Below are positions 1,506-58,462 of a stretch of 64,000 bases of DNA, in pieces. The translations under genes and the position numbers were made by a program. The notes under the pieces were generated by a model. It did not search any database. It was given only the letters and a program-made list of their open reading frames with translations, and was not told the DNA's origin. Position 1 is the first letter of the stretch, and each line of letters begins with the position of its first letter. Source of the DNA: Octopus vulgaris (Eukaryota); contig OX597833.1 of the NCBI GenBank assembly GCA_951406725.2, positions 72,168,001-72,232,000 on the forward strand, given 5' to 3'.

Positions 1506-45330
<43,825 letters not shown>

Positions 45331-45503
45331 AGATTGTTTGTATAAAAACATTATATATGAAACCATTCAAAGTCTTCTTTTTTATAACTGGTTTCTATCA
45401 CTGTTCTTGTGCAAGATCTCAAAGAATATAGGAAAAACTTCCATTCTAAATTGCTTGCAACAAGAACTGTTGTTTACAGATATTTTCCTTATTTAATACA
45501 AAA

Positions 45504-45534
45504 AATAAAAAATAAATAAAACTCTTTTAAATAA
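45504..45534 (+). terminator. Polyadenylation signal cluster of gene A
   Basis: Four AATAAA hexamers about 175-205 nt after the stop, followed by a GT/T-rich tract. Confidence 0.65.
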
Positions 45535-46342
45535 AAGAAGGTAACTGTTTTTTTATTAGATTTCTCTCCAATTCGCTTTTACCCTCTTGCCCCTGCCACT
45601 TCTCACAGATACAGTTATCATCAAGTCATCATAAGTATCATCTCAGTTTGTATTTTTGTATTTATATTACACACACACACACACATGCGCACACACACAT
45701 GCACACCCACACACACACACACAATATTCAAGTGTACAAATGGAAGAAAAAGCACGCAAAACTACAGTGAAGTCTATGAATCCAATTGAAAATGTTGCTT
45801 GTCATTACTTGATATTTACCATCTGAAAGAATAGGTAAGTATGGGCAAGAGAGTATTGCAACAGAGTAAACTGGTAGCTTTCTGTAAATATACATATGTA
45901 TGCAGTGGCCCGGGAACAAAATTTGCTTAGGGGGTGCAAACTCAGTTCCAAAGTTTGGCACTACTGGAGAAGTGTGGATCCGAGTTCTGGGAGTGTGCAT
46001 GTCACAAATTTGCACATGCAAGCGCATTAGTCGTAAGTAGTCGATTTTAGCCCACAGGTAGACAACGAGATTAATCTGTTGCTACTTGCTGTAAATGGAG
46101 GGTGGGTTATCCATCTAATACAAGAAGAAAATTGCAGATAAATTGAATAAAAACATGAAAAATAAACAAAATGATATTTCATTGAAAAGTAAACCATTCT
46201 GAAAGATAGTTCAGAATGTTTTCAAAACATTCATCTCCAGCTTTTCCCATACTTTATTAAGGGTTAGGGGTTAGGGTTGAGGGTTAGGTTGAGGGTTAGG
46301 GGAGATGAATGTTTTTTTCAGTATTCAATGATTATTTTTCAT

Positions 46343-47638
46343 GGATCTTTTCACTTTGACCGGCAGATTTTTGAAATCATTTCTTTGTAACTAAACACGT
46401 TTAAACTTCGTATACTGGTAGAATGTGTTACATAAAACATCTTTTTCTCTTGGCTTTCTTGAGAAAATTCTGTAGTTTGTAAGCTATTTGTTGTTAAATT
46501 TCTTGCATTTCGGCAATTTCAACCAATCAATGACGTCTATTGAGATGAATACAATTTCTGCTGTAGTTTGTCAACAACAATTTCCTGCGGTGTCTACTCA
46601 GTTTGTCAGTTATTTATGACATATTTCATATCAGTTACGTTCCCATGAATAAAAGATTATCGTTATTAAACTTTTATTAATAAACACATATTCTAAGTTC
46701 ACAACACATGCAGTTTTAATTTCCCTCTCTGTTGCACAGATACACACATTACATATTATATATTCGTTTAAGAAACAGATTGGGTTTATTTACATTTCTG
46801 AAGAAAAAAGATACCCTTCCCTCCACCCTAACCCCTAACCCTAAAACAGATTGAAATGCAATAGATCGATACTAGGGTCATAATTATGGGTGGACACTAT
46901 ATGTGGGAACGGTTTTCTTATCCAGCTCTGTTTACGAGTGACCCCTCAGTTTATGGCCACAAAATGTTTATATTTGCAGCTTATTTACATTTCTGATGAA
47001 AAAAAGATACCCTCTCACCCCACCCCTGACCCTAATCCCACATATATAAAAAATAAAAACTTTACGGAAAGTGACGATCTTCAAATGTAAACAAATACAC
47101 GTGTGTGGTCATAAACTGAGCTGGAAAACAAAACCGTTCCTTCATTTAGTGTCCACCCATAATTATGACCCTAGTATCGATCAATTGCATTTCAATCTGT
47201 TTTAGGGTTAGGGGTGGGGGGAAAGTATCTTTTTTCTTCAGAAATGTAAATAAGCTGCAAATATAAACATTTTGTGGCCATAAACTGAGGGGTCACTCGT
47301 AAACAGAGCTGGATAAGAAAACCGTTCCCACATTTATTGTCCACCCATAATTATGACCCTAGTATCGATCTATTATTGACACCGCCGGAAGTTGTTGTTG
47401 AAATTGTTGCCAAACAACAGCAGAAATTGTATTTACCTTAATAGACGTCATTGATTGGTTAAAATTGCCGAAATGCAAGAAATTTAACAACAAATAGCTT
47501 ACAATCTACAGAATTTTCTCAAGAAAGCCAAGAGAAAAAGATGTTTTATGTAACACATTCTACCAGTATACGAAGTTTAAAGTGTTTAGTTACAAAGAAA
47601 GTAATTTCAAAAATCTGCCGGTCAAAGTGAAAAGATCC
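46343..47638. mobile_element. Complete foldback element with 9-bp TSD (Mutator-like; Merlin not excluded)
   Basis: About 250-bp TIRs GGATCTTTTCACTTTGACCGGCAG...CTGCCGGTCAAAGTGAAAAGATCC; flanks ATTTTTCAT / ATTTTTCAC (copy 1 has ATTTTTCAC on its left). Confidence 0.85.
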
Positions 47639-47811
47639 ATTTTTCACTTTTATATTCAATTTATTTGCAATTTTCTTTTTGTATTACATGGATAACCCCG
47701 CTCCATTTACTGCAAGCAGTGCTCATCCGTGCATCTCGTTGTTTCCCTTTTTGTTAAAATCACCTAGTAGTGTGTATCCGCGCGTCTCGTCGTTTGCCTT
47801 ATGAGCTAAAG

Positions 47812-48060
47812 TTCTAGTTAGGCTAATGATAACATATTTAATGCAGGGATGCATTAAAAAAAGCTAACCAAAATGCTCCCTGCATTTAATATGTTAACAT
47901 TGATTAAGGTATCAGCTTTCAAACCTATTGGACGGTGTGTCTAAGTTATATCTGCATAATTTAAGCATAAATTATGCAACAAGACTGAGGACAGATAACC
48001 TCAAAATTTTAAATGACCTTTATAACATGTCAGTATTTATCTTCAAGTCCCTATACATGT

Positions 48061-48091
<31 letters not shown>

Positions 48092-48995
48092 TATATATAT
48101 ATTATCATCATCATCATCATTGTCATGATCTAACGTCTGTTTCCAATACTGGCATGGGTTGACAGGAGTTGACCAGTTGAAGAACTGCCTGGGCTCCATG
48201 TCTGTTTTGTCATGGTTTCTACAGCGGGATGCTCTTCCTAACACCAACCACTTTACAGAGTGTACTGGGTACTTTTACGCAGCACTAGCACAGATGCTTT
48301 TATGTGGCACCATCACTCACGGGCCTGCAACCTAAGGATCACTCGGCTGAAAGAGGGTTTTAGGGGACATGCCTGTATGCAAGGGCAACCATGATTTTAC
48401 TTAGCTTGTCATGGTCTTCTCAAGCACAGCAAATGGCCAGAAGACTCAGTCCCTTGTCAGCTCCTCTGTGAGGCCCAATGTCTGAAGTTCCTTTCTCACC
48501 ATTTTGTCTTCCTAGCTCTACACCTTCCACATGTTCACTCCACAATTAGAGACCAGCACTTCTTAATGCAACCGTCTTCATTCATATGCATCACATGGCC
48601 ACACAAGTGCTCTCTCTTCTCTCTTGCAGACTACATCTGATGCTACATATGCCCGGTTTATCCCTCAAATCACTTACACTCTCTCATATAAGCACACTGA
48701 CATCACCCATCCAGCAGAGAATACTGGCTTAATTTCTTTCAAGCCTTTGCATATCCTCAGTATTCACATCCCATGTCTCACTGCCACTGGAGACTGGAAA
48801 TTGTTTTTGGTATCATAATATTTATTCACCAGTAAGAAGGAATCAACTGGGATTTACCCTAACTCTCTACACAATAGTATGTGCACATAATTGTGGAGGT
48901 TCACATGTTTTGATGCCAAAATTCAGTCCATGGTGTTGTAAGTTTATGAGGTGGTAGATTCATAAGTCTGTGTGTATATGTATTCCATGGATCAT
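47812..48995 (-). repeat. Inverted copy of 51957-53159 (left arm of 1.2-kb inverted repeat)
   Basis: Reverse complement read end to end; ORF 48624-48818(+) is identical to 52134-52328(-); I saw only one substitution plus microsatellite length differences. Confidence 0.97.
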
Positions 48996-49218
48996 TTATT
49001 TGTACATCTTTCTATGAATTCATTTCTATTCCGTTATTTTGATATGATTGTGTGTGTGTGTATGAATTTTCAAAGTGTGAATTGTCTCTTGTGCATGAAC
49101 GAAAGAAGGTTGATTCTCTTATGTTTAAAGTATTCATTGTCGATGTTATGGTATTCATACTTAAGAATTTCATGCATGATCTCCCACCCACTTTGACACC
49201 CCTCCAACCTGAATAAGT
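48994..49218 (+). repeat. Direct copy of 51577-51801 (225 bp)
   Basis: Identical except one visible substitution (TCGATG/TTGATG). Confidence 0.96.
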
Positions 49219-49514
49219 GACTTTCCAATTTGCCGTGAAACCATTTGGTAGCTGGTATCGTTACAAGGTCTATTTATATTTATATTTAAACGATGATGAT
49301 GATGATGATGATGATGATTGTATATTTATAGAGAGGGCAAATTTAGCCGGTACTACTTAGGAAGAGTGGTCCCGGTGCGTGCACTCACGTACTTGCGCAT
49401 CCACGCTAGCTAGTCGTGACTAGTCGATCCTTACTTTGTGTTTTTGTGTTTTATTTACTTTGTTTAAAAAGATTATTTACTTTGTGTTTTATTTACTTTG
49501 TTTTAAAAAAAATT

Positions 49515-50173
49515 GGATCTTTTCCTTTTGAACGGCAGTTTTCAACACAATTTCTAGTTAACTAAACACTTTTAAGCTTCGTTTTCTGGTAGAATGTGTC
49601 AAAATAAAACATTTTTTTCTCTTGGCTTTCTTGAGAAAAATGTAATTTGTAAGTTTAACGTAGTTTAATTTTTTGAATTTTAACCAATTAATGGCCTCTA
49701 TTGAGCTAAAATCATTTGCTGCGTCTAAAACAGACAACATCCTGTCACTAACCCTAACCCTAAATTTTAGCCTTTCGTTTGTTTTTTTTTCTTAATTGTT
49801 AAATTAATTTAATTGTTATGCGTGTGTCTAAAATTATTTGTTTTGTTTTTGTTTTGAACTATTTTCCATTGCTTTTGTTTTTTTTTTTTTCTTAATTGTT
49901 AAATTATTAAAACAAATAATTTTAGACACACGCGCGTAACAATTAAATTAATTTAACAATTAAGAAAAAAGAAATGAAAGGCTAAAATTTACGGTTAGGG
50001 TTAGGGTTAGTGACAGGATGTTGTCTGTTTTAGACGCAGCAAATGATTTTAGCTCAATAGAGGCCATTGATTGGTCAAAATTTGAAAAATGAAACTACTT
50101 TAAACTTACAAATTACAATTTTCTCAAGAAAGCCAAGAGAAAAAAATGTTTTATTTTGACACATTCTACCAGA
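49515..50173. mobile_element. Second-subfamily foldback element inserted in the centre of the mariner MITE, right arm truncated
   Basis: GGATCTTTTCCTTTTGAACGGCAG...; arms about 49585-49850 / 49905-50173; TAACCC/GGGTTA motifs. Confidence 0.8.
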
Positions 50174-50489
50174 GCTTATCATCACATTCTTCTAGAAAAT
50201 AATTCTCAAGCTAATGAGGGATCCCCTAACTTGGTTGCTTGATCTGCCAGAAATAGCATCCAATTTCCATCAGATTATACTCTAGCATCTTAAAAGTAAT
50301 GTGGTCCCAGTTTTACTGCACAACCCATGTCAGCATGGAAAGTGGATGTTAAACGACGACGACAACGAGGAAGAAAAAGAACCAGAGTGATCACTGTTGA
50401 AATCTCTTTGATCACATAACTTCTCCATAAAGATTGGCATTTGGTTTTGCTTCACTGAAAGTCACCCTGTGTTACCTATGTTACTTAAC

Positions 50490-51179
50490 ATAGGTAAATC
50501 ATTCAATTTCTCTTTAATAAATCACTCCTCTTTCTCTTCTTATTCTTTGGTATCATTCTCATATTATTTCCATGCTTCTACCCTATACCCCTCTCTTTTT
50601 CCCTTGTTTATTCTATCTCCCTTTTCTCTTTCCATCTGTCTTTATTGCACTTTTTCATTCTCTTTTTACCTTTCTCAGTTTTTTTTTTCTCTCTCTTCTT
50701 TTGTCTTTTCTTTTCTTTTCTCCACTCTTATCCCCTGTCTCTCTTTGCTTTTTTCTGTTCCCCTTTTCCACCACATTTCCATACATTTTCCCCCTTTCTA
50801 CCTCTTATTTCTTTCCACTTTCTCTCTTACTGTTTTTTCAGATCCAAAAATCCCCTTATTTATATCTTTTCCTTTACTTCTTTCTCTTCCTCTTTTTCTC
50901 TCTCATCTGCCTTTCTATTCCCTATTCTTCACCACACTGTTTCAATTCTTGCTCTTTCTCTTTAAACACCAACCCCATTTATTTATTTTTCATTTAACTC
51001 TTTCTCTCTCTCCACATTTTCCAATATTGCACAATCATCAACCTATTTTTTTGTTCCACTTTTCCACACCCTCCACTCTCTTCTCATTCATTCACTATTC
51101 TTCTTTATCTCTATTTCTTTCTCTCTCTCCCCTCTCCCTCCCTCCCTCTCCCCTCTCCATCCTCTCTCTTTTCTTTCAG
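50490..51179 (+). other. About 690-bp pyrimidine-rich tract ending in a strong 3' splice acceptor
   Basis: Very T/C-rich, ends TTTTCTTTCAG 55 nt before gene B ATG. Confidence 0.7.
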
Positions 51180-51234
51180 TTATGTCATTTCGGTGCTTTT
51201 CCTAACTGTCATTCATCTCATATTCCACAAGCTT

Positions 51235-51279
51235 ATGGCAGGCGACAACTTTCAAGCATTCTGTGAGTCACCACTTTGG
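51235..51279 (+). CDS. ABCC1: Gene B (second ABCC1/MRP1-like) first coding exon
   Basis: ATG GCA...: MAGDNFQAFCESPLW|gtaaat, matching the MRP N-terminal FC...PLW motif; phase 0 fits the next exon; missed by the ORF track. Confidence 0.88.
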
Positions 51280-51956
51280 GTAAATATTAGAGAGTTTGTT
51301 ATTTTTTTCTCTCGCATTTACTTTAGTTCACATTAACAAAACTCTAAGTGGTTTGTTTGTATTTTTTCTTTATCTGTATATCTAAATAGCCATTTAGAGG
51401 TCAGCTTGTAAATCTATCTGTCATTTTAGCTGTTGGCCTACCTTTCTAGCGACATATCTCACTAGCTTACTGTCTATCTGTTTGTTTATCTGCCACCTTG
51501 TCTGTCCATCTCTGTACTTCTCAAGCTATAATCCGGCTGTATATTTGTTGAGCTAAATATTTTATTCAATGTACTTATTTATTTGTACATCTTTCTATGA
51601 ATTCATTTCTATTCCGTTATTTTGATATGATTGTGTGTGTGTGTATGAATTTTCAAAGTGTGAATTGTCTCTTGTGCATGAACGAAAGAAGGTTGATTCT
51701 CTTATGTTTAAAGTATTCATTGTTGATGTTATGGTATTCATACTTAAGAATTTCATGCATGATCTCCCACCCACTTTGACACCCCTCCAACCTGAATAAG
51801 TTTTTTTCTCTGGACACCAATTATATGCATTATATGAATATTATGTATAAAAGACACATGCCTCCATAAACTTATGCTGGATTCCTTCATTGAACAGATA
51901 TATGTGCATTAAACATATTCATGACACCACATGGTTCACAGAATTCATGACATCAC

Positions 51957-52849
51957 ATGATCCATGGAATACATATACACACAGACTTATGAATCTACCA
52001 CCTCATAAACTTACAACACCATGGACTGAATTTTGGCATCAAAACATGTGAACCTCCACAATTATGTGCACATACTATTGTGTAGAGAGTTAGGGTAAAT
52101 CCCAGTTGATTCCTTCTTACTGGTGAATAAATATTATGATACCAAAAACAATTTCCAGTCTCCAGTGGCAGTGAGACATGGGATGTGAATACTGAGGATA
52201 TGCAAAGGCTTGAAAGAAATTAAGCCAGTATTCTCTGCTGGATGGGTGATGTCAGTGTGCTTATATGAGAGAGTGTAAGTGATTTGAGGGATAAACCGGG
52301 CATATGTAGCATCAGATGTAGTCTGCAAGAGAGAAGAGAGAGCACTTGTGTGGCCATGTGATGCATATGAATGAAGACGGTTGCATTAAGAAGTGCTGGT
52401 CTCTAATTGTGGAGTGAACATGTGGAAGGTGTAGAGCTAGGAAGACAAAATGGTGAGAAAGGAACTTCAGACATTGGGCCTCACAGAGGAGCTGACAAGG
52501 GACTGAGTCTTCTGGCCATTTGCTGTGCTTGAGAAGACCATGACAAGCTAAGTAAAATCATGGTTGCCCTTGCATACAGGCATGTCCCCTAAAACCCTCT
52601 TTCAGCCGAGTGATCCTTAGGTTGCAGGCCCGTGAGTGATGGTGCCACATAAAAGCATCTGTGCTAGTGCTGCGTAAAAGTACCCAGTACACTCTGTAAA
52701 GTGGTTGGTGTTAGGAAGAGCATCCCACTGTAGAAACCATGACAAAACAGACATGGAGCCCAGGCAGTTCTTCAACTGGTCAACTCCTGTCAACCCATGC
52801 CAGTATTGGAAACAGACGTTAGATCATGACAATGATGATGATGATGATA

Positions 52850-52882
<33 letters not shown>

Positions 52883-53159
52883 TATTGTGTGTGTGTGTGT
52901 GTGTGTGTGTACATGTATAGGGACTTGAAGATAAATACTGACATGTTATAAAGGTCATTTAAAATTTTGAGGTTATCTGTCCTCAGTCTTGTTGCATAAT
53001 TTATGCTTAAATTATGCAGATATAACTTAGACACACCGTCCAATAGGTTTGAAAGCTGATACCTTAATCAATGTTAACATATTAAATGCAGGGAGCATTT
53101 TGGTTAGCTTTTTTTAATGCATCCCTGCATTAAATATGTTATCATTAGCCTAACTAGAA
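51957..53159 (+). repeat. Right arm (source) of the 1.2-kb inverted repeat, gene B intron 1; includes an RTE 3' remnant
   Basis: Reverse complement of 47812-48995. Confidence 0.97.
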
Positions 53160-57352: not shown

Positions 57353-57544
57353 AATTCCTCACTGACATGGAGTTCAAACAACGGTTCTTGGCCCCAGTTT
57401 ACCGACTGCTTTCAAAAAACAGTTCTTGTATGGATACCTTGTGGTTGGTTGTTTCTCACACTGCCTTATTACTCATATCACCTCATCACAACTCGTGGAA
57501 AATCGAAATCTAGGCATATCACATTTTTCAGCATTTTAAAAACT
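57353..57544 (+). CDS. ABCC1: Gene B exon 2 (TMD0)
   Basis: cttcag|NSSLTWSSNNGSWPQFTDCFQKTVLVWIPCGWLF...ILKT|gtaagt. Confidence 0.95.
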
Positions 57545-58462
57545 GTAAGTAAAAAGCTGTTTTTTTTTTCCATTTCCATGCTGATGTTGTTGTTGTTGTT
57601 GTTGTTGTTGTTCATGGTGGTAGTGGTGGTGGTGGTGGTGGTGGTGGTGGTGGTAGTTGTGGTAACAGCCTCAATTGGAGGAATGGTATAGTTGAGACTA
57701 GTTATTGTTGTTGAAGGTGCTCGTGGTAGAGTGGGGTATGTGAAAATAGTTGCTTTGGTCGAGAGTGGGGTGAAGGTAACTGTTGTGATTGTGTGGGGTT
57801 GAAGCTGGTTGTTTGGTTGAATCATGGAGGCACTGGCAGTGGAGTGATAATAACTGAAGCTGTTCCCTTTTTTTTTTTTCCCTGTCCTTTTTCTGTTTTG
57901 CAAGTTACCTAGCAACCTCACAGTAGATAAAAAAAAAAGGCACCCAGAACACACTGTAATATGGTTAATACTAGGAAGAGTACCCTGCCATAAAAATCAT
58001 GGCAAAGCTGACATTGAAACTCAGCATAGCCCTGCAACTTTCTGGATCTTGTAAAACCATCCAATCCAACCAATGCTTGCAAGGAAAACAGGCGTTAACT
58101 GATGATGATGTAACACATATACACACATGTGCATCGTCATATATATAGTATTGACTTGTCTGAGTCCTGGTAACATCACAAAGATACTCCAATGTAGCAA
58201 GCCACTTGATTTGCTGAAAGAAACTGTTGAACTTTGCTTGCATTAAGTACTTCAAATCCAGATCATTCTTACTAAATCGATATATGTGTGTGGGTGTGAT
58301 TATGCATCAAGATAAAGAATCATTGGGGTTTGTTTATTTTCGCTTATCTATCACAACATGCCTATCCCTCATTTTGCCTGCTAATCGGCATAGTTCCTTC
58401 TCTTTCAACCAATATTTTAATTCTCTCTCTCACTCACTCACTCCCTCTCTCCCTCTTCTCTG

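What the first reader, a model, noticed from the sequence alone, without database searches (positions are those of the whole stretch)
47812..53159. Start exon of ABCC gene B enclosed by a near-perfect 1.2-kb inverted repeat: possible invertible switch or giant dsRNA hairpin
Seen: arms 47812-48995 and 51957-53159 are almost identical reverse complements. The 2.96-kb spacer holds the pyrimidine tract and the ATG exon (51235-51279). Inference at DNA level: recombination between the arms would flip the start exon and inactivate the gene reversibly without changing the flanks. Inference at RNA level: if transcription starts upstream of 48995, the pre-mRNA could form a 1.2-kb duplex that loops out exon 1. 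That would be a strong ADAR/Dicer substrate, relevant if the host is a coleoid cephalopod with extensive A-to-I editing. Near identity implies a very recent origin or ongoing gene conversion.
Basis: partly seen in the sequence, partly recalled or inferred. Interest (0 to 1): 0.82.

Follow-up and report, generated by a model that had tools for sequence, protein, structure and literature searches.

The report
Repair patch brackets octopus MRP1 exon
About 1,400 bases of the first intron of an octopus drug-pump gene have a near-identical, mostly backwards copy just upstream of the gene's first coding exon; the copy is real and young and is likely an ordinary DNA-repair scar, which could in principle let that exon flip or be deleted, although no flip has been seen.

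Summary
The inverted repeat is real: one substitution outside a microsatellite, plus a 19-nt microsatellite indel. The exon encodes residues 1-15 of an octopus MRP1 protein, 15 of 15 identical. The unit is thus a 1,407-nt two-donor insert (47812-49218) that replaced about 0.8 kb of a hAT-like transposon, with 1-3 nt microhomologies, no target duplication and no poly(A). Short-read contigs show the duplication in two runs of organism A from separate studies; a run of a ~1% diverged organism B has only the intron copy. This fits a chimeric repair-mediated duplication (Pace et al. 2009), larger than the human ones. Its youth explains the identity, so conversion is not needed. Spacer orientation and the transcription start could not be tested. 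Flipping would be an F8-intron-1-type accident rather than a switch; a 1.2-kb RNA hairpin is unlikely. The scan has noted such repair scars in other genomes. Ordinary; interest low.

The parts
45903..47811 (+). Left part of a non-autonomous hAT-like DNA transposon (16-nt terminal repeat at 45903, nested internal palindromes); acceptor site of the insert
47812..48995 (-). L: derived, inverted copy of intron-1 segment 51957-53159
   Evidence: its inner junction is absent from organism B contigs, and contigs of two organism A runs break at 48995.
48996..49218 (+). X: derived, direct copy of intron-1 segment 51579-51801, joined to L through 2 nt of microhomology (12 of 16 columns alike with one gap)
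   Evidence: junction unitig 48966-49023 in run X1; about twofold depth in runs X1 and X2.
49219..49500 (+). Right remnant of the same transposon; joined to X through 3 nt of microhomology; about 0.7-0.83 kb of element interior is missing between 47811 and 49219; no right terminal repeat in this copy
   Evidence: L051 positions 646 to 1475; interior segment present in 8 of 11 other copies.
49509..50173 (.). Palindromic MITE-like repeat inside the spacer
50935..51234 (+). Pyrimidine-rich region before the ATG (80% C+T); likely promoter and 5' UTR; paralog A has a similar tract but lacks the CAG at -56
   Evidence: promoter role inferred.
51235..51279 (+). First coding exon of ABCC gene B (MRP1/ABCC1-like)
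   Evidence: 15 of 15 residues identical to P0001; 13 of 15 to paralog A exon 1.
51579..51801 (+). X': donor of X (ancestral intron 1)
   Evidence: Contiguous with the 155-nt gap and R in organism B (record 31); an old dispersed repeat on C5 spans 51777-52077 without a break.
51802..51956 (+). 155 nt between the two donor segments, not copied
51957..53159 (+). R: donor of L (ancestral intron 1); holds an old RTE-like LINE remnant (about 52160-52870) and a hairpin at about 53070-53146
   Evidence: Paralog A intron 1 matches 52934-53158 at 73% in the same orientation; remnant has 10,036 candidates, scored ones about 73-78% alike (RTE label recalled); hairpin z = -4.87.
57353..57547 (+). Exon 2 of gene B
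   Evidence: 94% to P0001.
45214..45535 (+). Last exon of tandem paralog A with three AATAAA hexamers at 45504-45535, 2.3 kb before L
   Evidence: use as the poly(A) site is inferred.
5164..8164 (+). Complete sister copy of the transposon with both terminal repeats and an 8-bp target duplication; reference for the empty site

Best explanation
The left arm and the 223 bases after it are a young 1,407-base copy of two pieces of gene B's first intron, likely made when a DNA break in a transposon remnant upstream of the gene was repaired by both broken ends copying nearby DNA, and it likely has no programmed function. Shown: the two-piece structure, the direction of copying (R and X' ancestral), the loss of transposon interior, the short junction homologies, presence in two runs of organism A and absence in one run of organism B. 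Inferred: a break in the palindrome-rich element lost about 0.8 kb; the left end invaded at 53159 and copied 1.2 kb leftwards; the right end invaded at 51801 and copied 223 nt; the two new ends annealed at a short patchy homology (two-ended synthesis-dependent strand annealing). Inferred consequence: exon 1 is now flanked by an inverted pair (rare homologous recombination would invert 48996-51956) and by a direct pair (recombination would delete about 2.6 kb with exon 1). Either would be a null allele of gene B, perhaps buffered by paralog A.
For: Insert interrupts a transposon whose other copies run on past the junction; interior segment present in 8 of 11 other copies and missing here (829 nt in L051). 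Donors lie 2.4 and 3.0 kb away and 155 nt from each other; no target duplication, no poly(A/T) tract; microhomology about 1 nt, 2 nt and 3 nt at the three junctions. These are the features of chimeric repair-mediated duplications in PMC2671141 (parts 1-3 of 8 read). Runs X1 and X2 (organism A, two studies) break at 48995 and at 48994/49218, with X at 84.9 and 37.8 against junction depths of 39.9-47 and 22.9; run X4 (organism B) has one unbranched 1114-nt contig in the ancestral order. Copy-donor divergence 2 of 1362 nt (0.15%, 95% range 0.02-0.53%) is below A-B divergence 5 of 500 nt (1.0%, 0.3-2.3%). Two older near-identical copies of the same intron piece lie 168 kb and 80 kb away, so local copying from this donor has happened before.
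Against: The insert (1407 nt) and the target deletion (about 0.8 kb) are well above the human proximal cases (max 619 nt; deletions 1-15 nt; PMC2671141). In X1 the arm depth (122.5) is nearer three than two times the junction depth, so X1 could be heterozygous or hold another copy. X1 may be the source of the assembly. Only one run of organism B was examined. The sequence cannot separate a DNA from an RNA template. The divergence ranges overlap slightly.
Confidence: 0.75

Rival explanations
1. The patch was copied from RNA: both break ends primed reverse transcription on one nascent gene-B transcript (twin priming in cis), giving an inverted long piece, a direct short piece and an internal deletion.
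For: Both ends copy the same strand, the sense strand of gene B (a 1-in-2 coincidence). The layout with an internal deletion and a longer first product (1203 vs 223 nt) matches L1 twin priming as described in 10.1101/2024.08.27.596794 (passages). The donor ends 25 nt after an ATTAAA and before a 22-of-30 G+T stretch; the hexamer alone occurs at 4-6% of positions, both together at 0.1-0.2% (threshold chosen after seeing the site). Class 2 TSIPs are proposed to be RNA-derived patches (PMC5110952).
Against: No poly(A), no target duplication. The ATTAAA is part of a hairpin stem and of an old dispersed repeat, so it need not be a cleavage signal. Two-ended DNA repair gives the same layout (PMC2671141, Fig. 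1 legend). TSI donors in PMC5110952 were distant, not adjacent. The one A-to-G difference in sense orientation is explained by CpG decay in the donor, since the older copy L036 shares the copy's base.
Confidence: 0.1
2. Whatever its origin, the repeat now drives recurrent inversion of exon 1 by ordinary non-allelic homologous recombination, so that inverted null alleles of gene B segregate in the species.
For: 770-nt perfect run and 3-kb spacer. F8 intron 1 inversion has the same anatomy (PMC7507428, passages). Human inversions between inverted repeats are often recurrent (11 of 16; PMC3961182), one at 5.35e-5 per generation (PMC6748972; repeat size not seen). Paralog A is 95-98% identical over several kb of the 3' half.
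Against: Only the productive orientation is known (the assembly). Gene B exons look intact in the tblastn pieces. Short reads carry no information on orientation.
Confidence: 0.15
3. Transcription starts upstream of L, or runs through from gene A, so one RNA holds both arms and folds into a 1.2-kb duplex that is edited or diced.
For: One 174-nt contig of run X14 (RNA only by guess) crosses the L/X junction with no differences, depth 10.8, 27 letters on the short side. Gene A ends only 2.3 kb before L.
Against: That contig is below the 31-letter rule, may be DNA or copies of one molecule, and reaches only 27 nt into L. Gene A has three AATAAA hexamers at 45504-45535. The CAG acceptor at -56 is not conserved in paralog A, and no non-repeat match was seen among the first 40 rows of the upstream comparison of A and B. 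Both copy-donor substitutions are CpG transitions on the intron side, a weak hint (n = 2) that only the donor lies in a methylated gene body (gene-body methylation recalled).
Confidence: 0.1
4. The arms are a programmed, reversible on/off switch for the transporter, like flip/flop mating-type switching in yeasts.
For: Geometry only: one inverted pair around exon 1.
Against: Absent in a ~1% diverged relative; built from an arbitrary intron piece with a LINE remnant; no second expression state gained; no recombinase gene in the window's ORF list as far as shown; similar near-perfect pairs occur in blind samples.
Confidence: 0.02
5. The hAT-like element captured host DNA as cargo and is a Pack-type transposon.
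Against: This copy has no right terminal repeat in the window. None of 11 other copies showed a >=100-nt, >=95% local duplicate demonstrably inside the element (for one copy on C1 the right end is not known). No second copy of element plus cargo was found. A transposase-made break remains a possible trigger of the repair.
Confidence: 0.05
6. The left arm is an assembly error.
Against: Junction unitigs, breakpoints and about twofold depth in two runs from separate studies.
Confidence: 0.02

Closest known systems
Chimeric repair-mediated duplications, RDs (Pace, Sen, Batzer, Feschotte 2009; PMC2671141, parts 1-3 of 8 read)
   Same: Insert interrupts a transposon; donors within 5 kb; two donors close to each other joined by microhomology; deletion at the target; no poly(A), no target duplication; lineage-specific.
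   Different: 1407 nt versus a maximum of 619 nt for human proximal RDs; target loss about 0.8 kb versus 1-15 nt; donors 155 nt apart versus 289-3432 nt; an invertebrate, whereas the parts read cover vertebrates only.
F8 intron 1 inversion, int1h-1/int1h-2 (PMC7507428, passages)
   Same: An intron-1 segment has a near-identical copy outside the gene; recombination between them detaches exon 1 from the rest.
   Different: Copies are about 126 kb apart in F8 and 3 kb here; inversion is observed in patients but not observed here; this locus also has a direct pair that would allow deletion, and a tandem paralog.
L1 twin-priming insertions and class 2 templated sequence insertion polymorphisms (10.1101/2024.08.27.596794, passages; PMC5110952, part 1 of 4 and passages)
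   Same: Inverted plus direct piece with an internal deletion, both templated on one strand; microhomology; class 2 TSIPs lack target duplication and poly(A).
   Different: No poly(A) primer tract; donor is adjacent, not distant; no evidence of an RNA step.
Flip/flop (FF1) mating-type switching in Ogataea and Ascoidea (PMC6692504, passages; PMC5720833, start of abstract)
   Same: One inverted repeat of kilobase size around an invertible gene region.
   Different: There the arrangement is shared by a clade, both orientations are found and inversion is induced; here the repeat is missing in a close relative and no second orientation is known.

Membership tests
Repair-mediated duplication (proximal, chimeric) | Insert of >=50 bp interrupts a transposon copy | tested here: met
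Repair-mediated duplication (proximal, chimeric) | Donor within 5 kb, more than 50 bp away, single parental copy | tested here: met
   Donors 2.4-3.0 kb away; only two near-identical full copies in the genome searches; a 531-nt part has a third, older copy.
Repair-mediated duplication (proximal, chimeric) | Microhomology, deletion or filler at junctions; no poly(A/T) tail | tested here: met
   About 1, 2 and 3 nt microhomology, about 0.8 kb deletion, no tail; empty site inferred from sister copies.
Repair-mediated duplication (proximal, chimeric) | Empty orthologous site in an outgroup | tested here: inconclusive
   Organism B lacks the duplication (unbranched donor contig), but the empty acceptor site itself was not seen.
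Repair-mediated duplication (proximal, chimeric) | DNA rather than RNA template | not testable with these tools
   Intron-only donor; layout fits both.
Inversion polymorphism by recombination between inverted repeats (F8 Inv1 type) | Near-identical inverted repeats flanking an exon | tested here: met
Inversion polymorphism by recombination between inverted repeats (F8 Inv1 type) | Both orientations observed | not testable with these tools
   All listed runs are kept as contigs; the junctions are the same in both orientations.
Programmed flip/flop switch | Arrangement shared by related species | tested here: not met
   Absent in the one run of organism B examined.
Programmed flip/flop switch | Inducible inversion with two expression states | not testable with these tools
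   Needs long reads or PCR across tissues.
LINE-mediated twin-priming insertion | Inverted plus direct piece from one template strand, with internal deletion | tested here: met
   compared with passages.
LINE-mediated twin-priming insertion | Poly(A) tail and target-site duplication | tested here: not met
   Neither at 47811/47812 nor at 49218/49219.
Pack-type (cargo-carrying) hAT transposon | Cargo between two intact terminal repeats with target duplication | tested here: not met
   No right terminal repeat for this copy in the window at up to 3 mismatches.
Long intramolecular dsRNA (ADAR/Dicer substrate) | Both arms in one transcript | tested here: inconclusive
   One weak contig at the L/X junction in a run guessed to be RNA; start site unknown.

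The most novel reading that the evidence does not exclude
A germline break next to an active gene was patched from that gene's own nascent intron RNA, with both break ends priming on one transcript. Intron 1 of this MRP1 copy, the source of at least three local copies, would then be a repeated donor, and the newest patch leaves exon 1 able to flip or drop out as a recurrent null allele of a xenobiotic pump.
Probability: 0.1. Interest if true: 0.65.

Novelty: new member of a known kind. Interest (0 to 1): 0.25.

Why it matters
As it stands it is a clean, datable example of a two-donor repair duplication in a mollusc, larger than those described in human. It shows how a single repair event can create F8-like architecture, here with both an inversion and a deletion route for exon 1 of a multidrug transporter. 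It gives a cheap marker that separates organism A from organism B in the runs seen, and a simple locus for measuring recombination between short inverted repeats in octopus. It would matter more only if inverted alleles, an RNA duplex or an RNA template were shown.

Tried and rejected
Arm as a mobile element with long terminal repeats: rejected, the arm is a composite of intron DNA with two full copies only. Misassembly: rejected for the two inner junctions; the outer junction at 47811 stays untested. RNA: no RNA holder listed on record; X14 has no cover at 48787-48968, which is no evidence either way. The idea that the 125-nt LINE piece beside the L036 copy came from upstream of gene A: rejected, many 96-98% copies exist genome-wide. 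Helitron-type end at the donor boundary (hairpin plus CTAG): not kept, the motif is not conserved in the four dispersed matches and is not followed by T (Helitron rule recalled). Fold-back inside the donor as cause of the L/X junction: only a 19-nt, 84% inverted match was found. ADAR marks in the copy: not supported. The bacterial promoter scan is not applicable to this host and gave nothing. The ungapped count 9 of 16 used a register off by one; the 12 of 16 with one gap comes from the BLAST columns. Literature: a search for octopus, ABCC1, tandem duplication, cephalopod gave 87 papers with at least 3 terms, and the 10 listed had no occurrence of ABCC1; octopus, A-to-I editing, inverted repeats, intron gave 10 papers, 8 listed, none on this locus by title; searches on abortive gap repair, templated insertions and RNA-templated repair were seen as listings only, apart from the papers cited. 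These searches do not show that the locus is absent from print. No supplements were read.
Full report
Observation. The arms exist at the stated places: 1203 columns, 98.25% identity, 2 mismatches, one 19-nt gap. The gap and one mismatch are in a microsatellite, and the longest perfect run is 770 nt. X starts exactly where the left arm ends, so the derived unit is 47812-49218.

Gene context. The window lies at C20:72168001-72232000 of a 2.8-Gb assembly. A search with exon 2 returned 4 proteins among 11 candidates, the best an Octopus bimaculoides MRP1 at 94%; its first 15 residues are encoded by 51235-51279. tblastn on 264 kb (window plus flanks) shows two tandem MRP1-like genes, A (exon 1 about 29 kb before the window, last exon 45214-45330) and B (51235 to about 43 kb beyond the window), and a third ABCC on the other strand further upstream. 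A and B are 95-98% identical over several kb of their 3' halves and far less in intron 1.

Direction of copying. R is the original. Paralog A's intron 1 matches the outer 225 nt of R at 73% in the same orientation. An old dispersed repeat on C5 spans the end of X', the 155-nt gap and inner R without a break. In run X4 (organism B) a single 1114-nt contig holds inner R, 155 nt and X' in the ancestral order without branching.

Not a misassembly; young. In runs X1 and X2 (organism A, two studies) contigs end exactly at 48995 and at 48994/49218. X1 has a 58-nt piece across the L/X junction (depth 39.9) and a piece across the X/transposon junction (47); X has depth 84.9. X2 has X at 37.8, the arm at 40 and the X/transposon junction at 22.9. 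Copy and donor differ at 2 of 1362 non-microsatellite positions, organisms A and B at 5 of 500. The copy is therefore probably younger than the A/B split, and conversion is not needed.

Acceptor site. Both flanks belong to one non-autonomous transposon. Nine other copies align up to 47810-47812 and then run on with element sequence. An interior segment of about 700 nt is present in 8 of 11 copies and missing here; in L051 the two junction points are 829 nt apart. This copy has no right terminal repeat in the window. Junction homologies are about 1 nt, 2 nt (12 of 16 columns with one gap) and 3 nt; there is no target duplication and no poly(A/T).

Mechanism (inferred). Read from each side, the left break end copied 53159 to 51957 and the right end copied 51801 to 51579, both on the plus strand, and the two products annealed. 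The present case is larger in insert and deletion. The same layout arises by L1 twin priming (passages), and the donor ends 25 nt after an ATTAAA, so an RNA template is not excluded; but that hexamer is part of a hairpin and of an old repeat and the tail is missing. I give it 0.1.

Switch. Recombination between L and R would invert 48996-51956 and detach exon 1, as in the F8 intron 1 inversion (passages); such inversions recur in humans. Recombination between X and X' would delete exon 1. Short-read contigs cannot show orientation, so neither is tested. Programmed flip/flop systems in yeasts are shared by clades and inducible; this repeat is missing in the closest relative examined.

Hairpin. 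It needs a start upstream of L. Against: transposon DNA upstream, a triple AATAAA ending gene A at 45504-45535, and a CAG acceptor at -56 that paralog A lacks although it shares the pyrimidine tract. For: one 174-nt contig of run X14, RNA only by guess, crosses the L/X junction with 27 letters inside L. Unresolved, unlikely.

Background. In 5 blind 200-kb blocks there was 1 inverted pair of at least 1 kb and 97% within 20 kb (3.7-kb arms, 99.3%, C5) and one of 465 nt; Poisson range 0.03-5.6 per Mb. The C5 pair has reverse transcriptase and endonuclease-like frames and looks like a Penelope-type element (label recalled, no family search run). Long near-perfect inverted pairs are thus not exceptional here. 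Earlier notes of this scan report similar repair scars around exons in other genomes; they are unchecked and were not used as support.

Verdict. Real, recent, explained by a known kind of repair duplication; possible mutational liability, no sign of function. New member of a known kind; interest 0.25.

Noticed in passing
L036:1501-2031 (G000:C20:72047987-72048517): A 531-nt, 98.9% copy of arm interior 48159-48689 sits in an intron of a third ABCC gene 168 kb upstream, fused to a 125-nt piece of a young LINE; depth in organism B suggests it predates the A/B split.
   Followed up: partly
G000:C20:72299899-72300024 (68 kb beyond the window end): A 127-nt, 97% copy of 48298-48424 inside an otherwise ~75% diverged LINE remnant; looks like one-sided conversion from the same donor.
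   Followed up: partly
window:22000-45402 versus 22-43 kb beyond the window end: Tandem MRP1 paralogs A and B are 95-98% identical in blocks of 1-5 kb including introns in the 3' half, but only about 70-88% in the 5' half: concerted evolution of the second half with divergence of the first transmembrane domains.
   Followed up: no
window:5164-8164 and 45903-49500: Non-autonomous hAT-like family with nested palindromes, telomere-like GGGTTA runs and several internal-deletion forms; two copies within 41 kb.
   Followed up: partly
L080 (G000:C5:50020424-50028687): 3.7-kb inverted arms at 99.3% around an 844-nt spacer, with reverse transcriptase and endonuclease-like open frames; likely a young Penelope-type insertion.
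   Followed up: partly
window:48969-49139: Run X14 (RNA by guess) has an isolated 174-nt contig that takes the L-specific path at the L/X junction, with 3 unmatched letters at its low end; unexplained.
   Followed up: no
window:29260-30090: 277-residue open frame resembling a PIF1-type helicase, probably a Helitron fragment in an intron of gene A (label recalled).
   Followed up: no
L171 (G000:C1, block positions 14047-19955 from 69165401): Another local inverted pair, 755 nt at 95.9%, 4.4 kb apart, near a copy of the same transposon.
   Followed up: no
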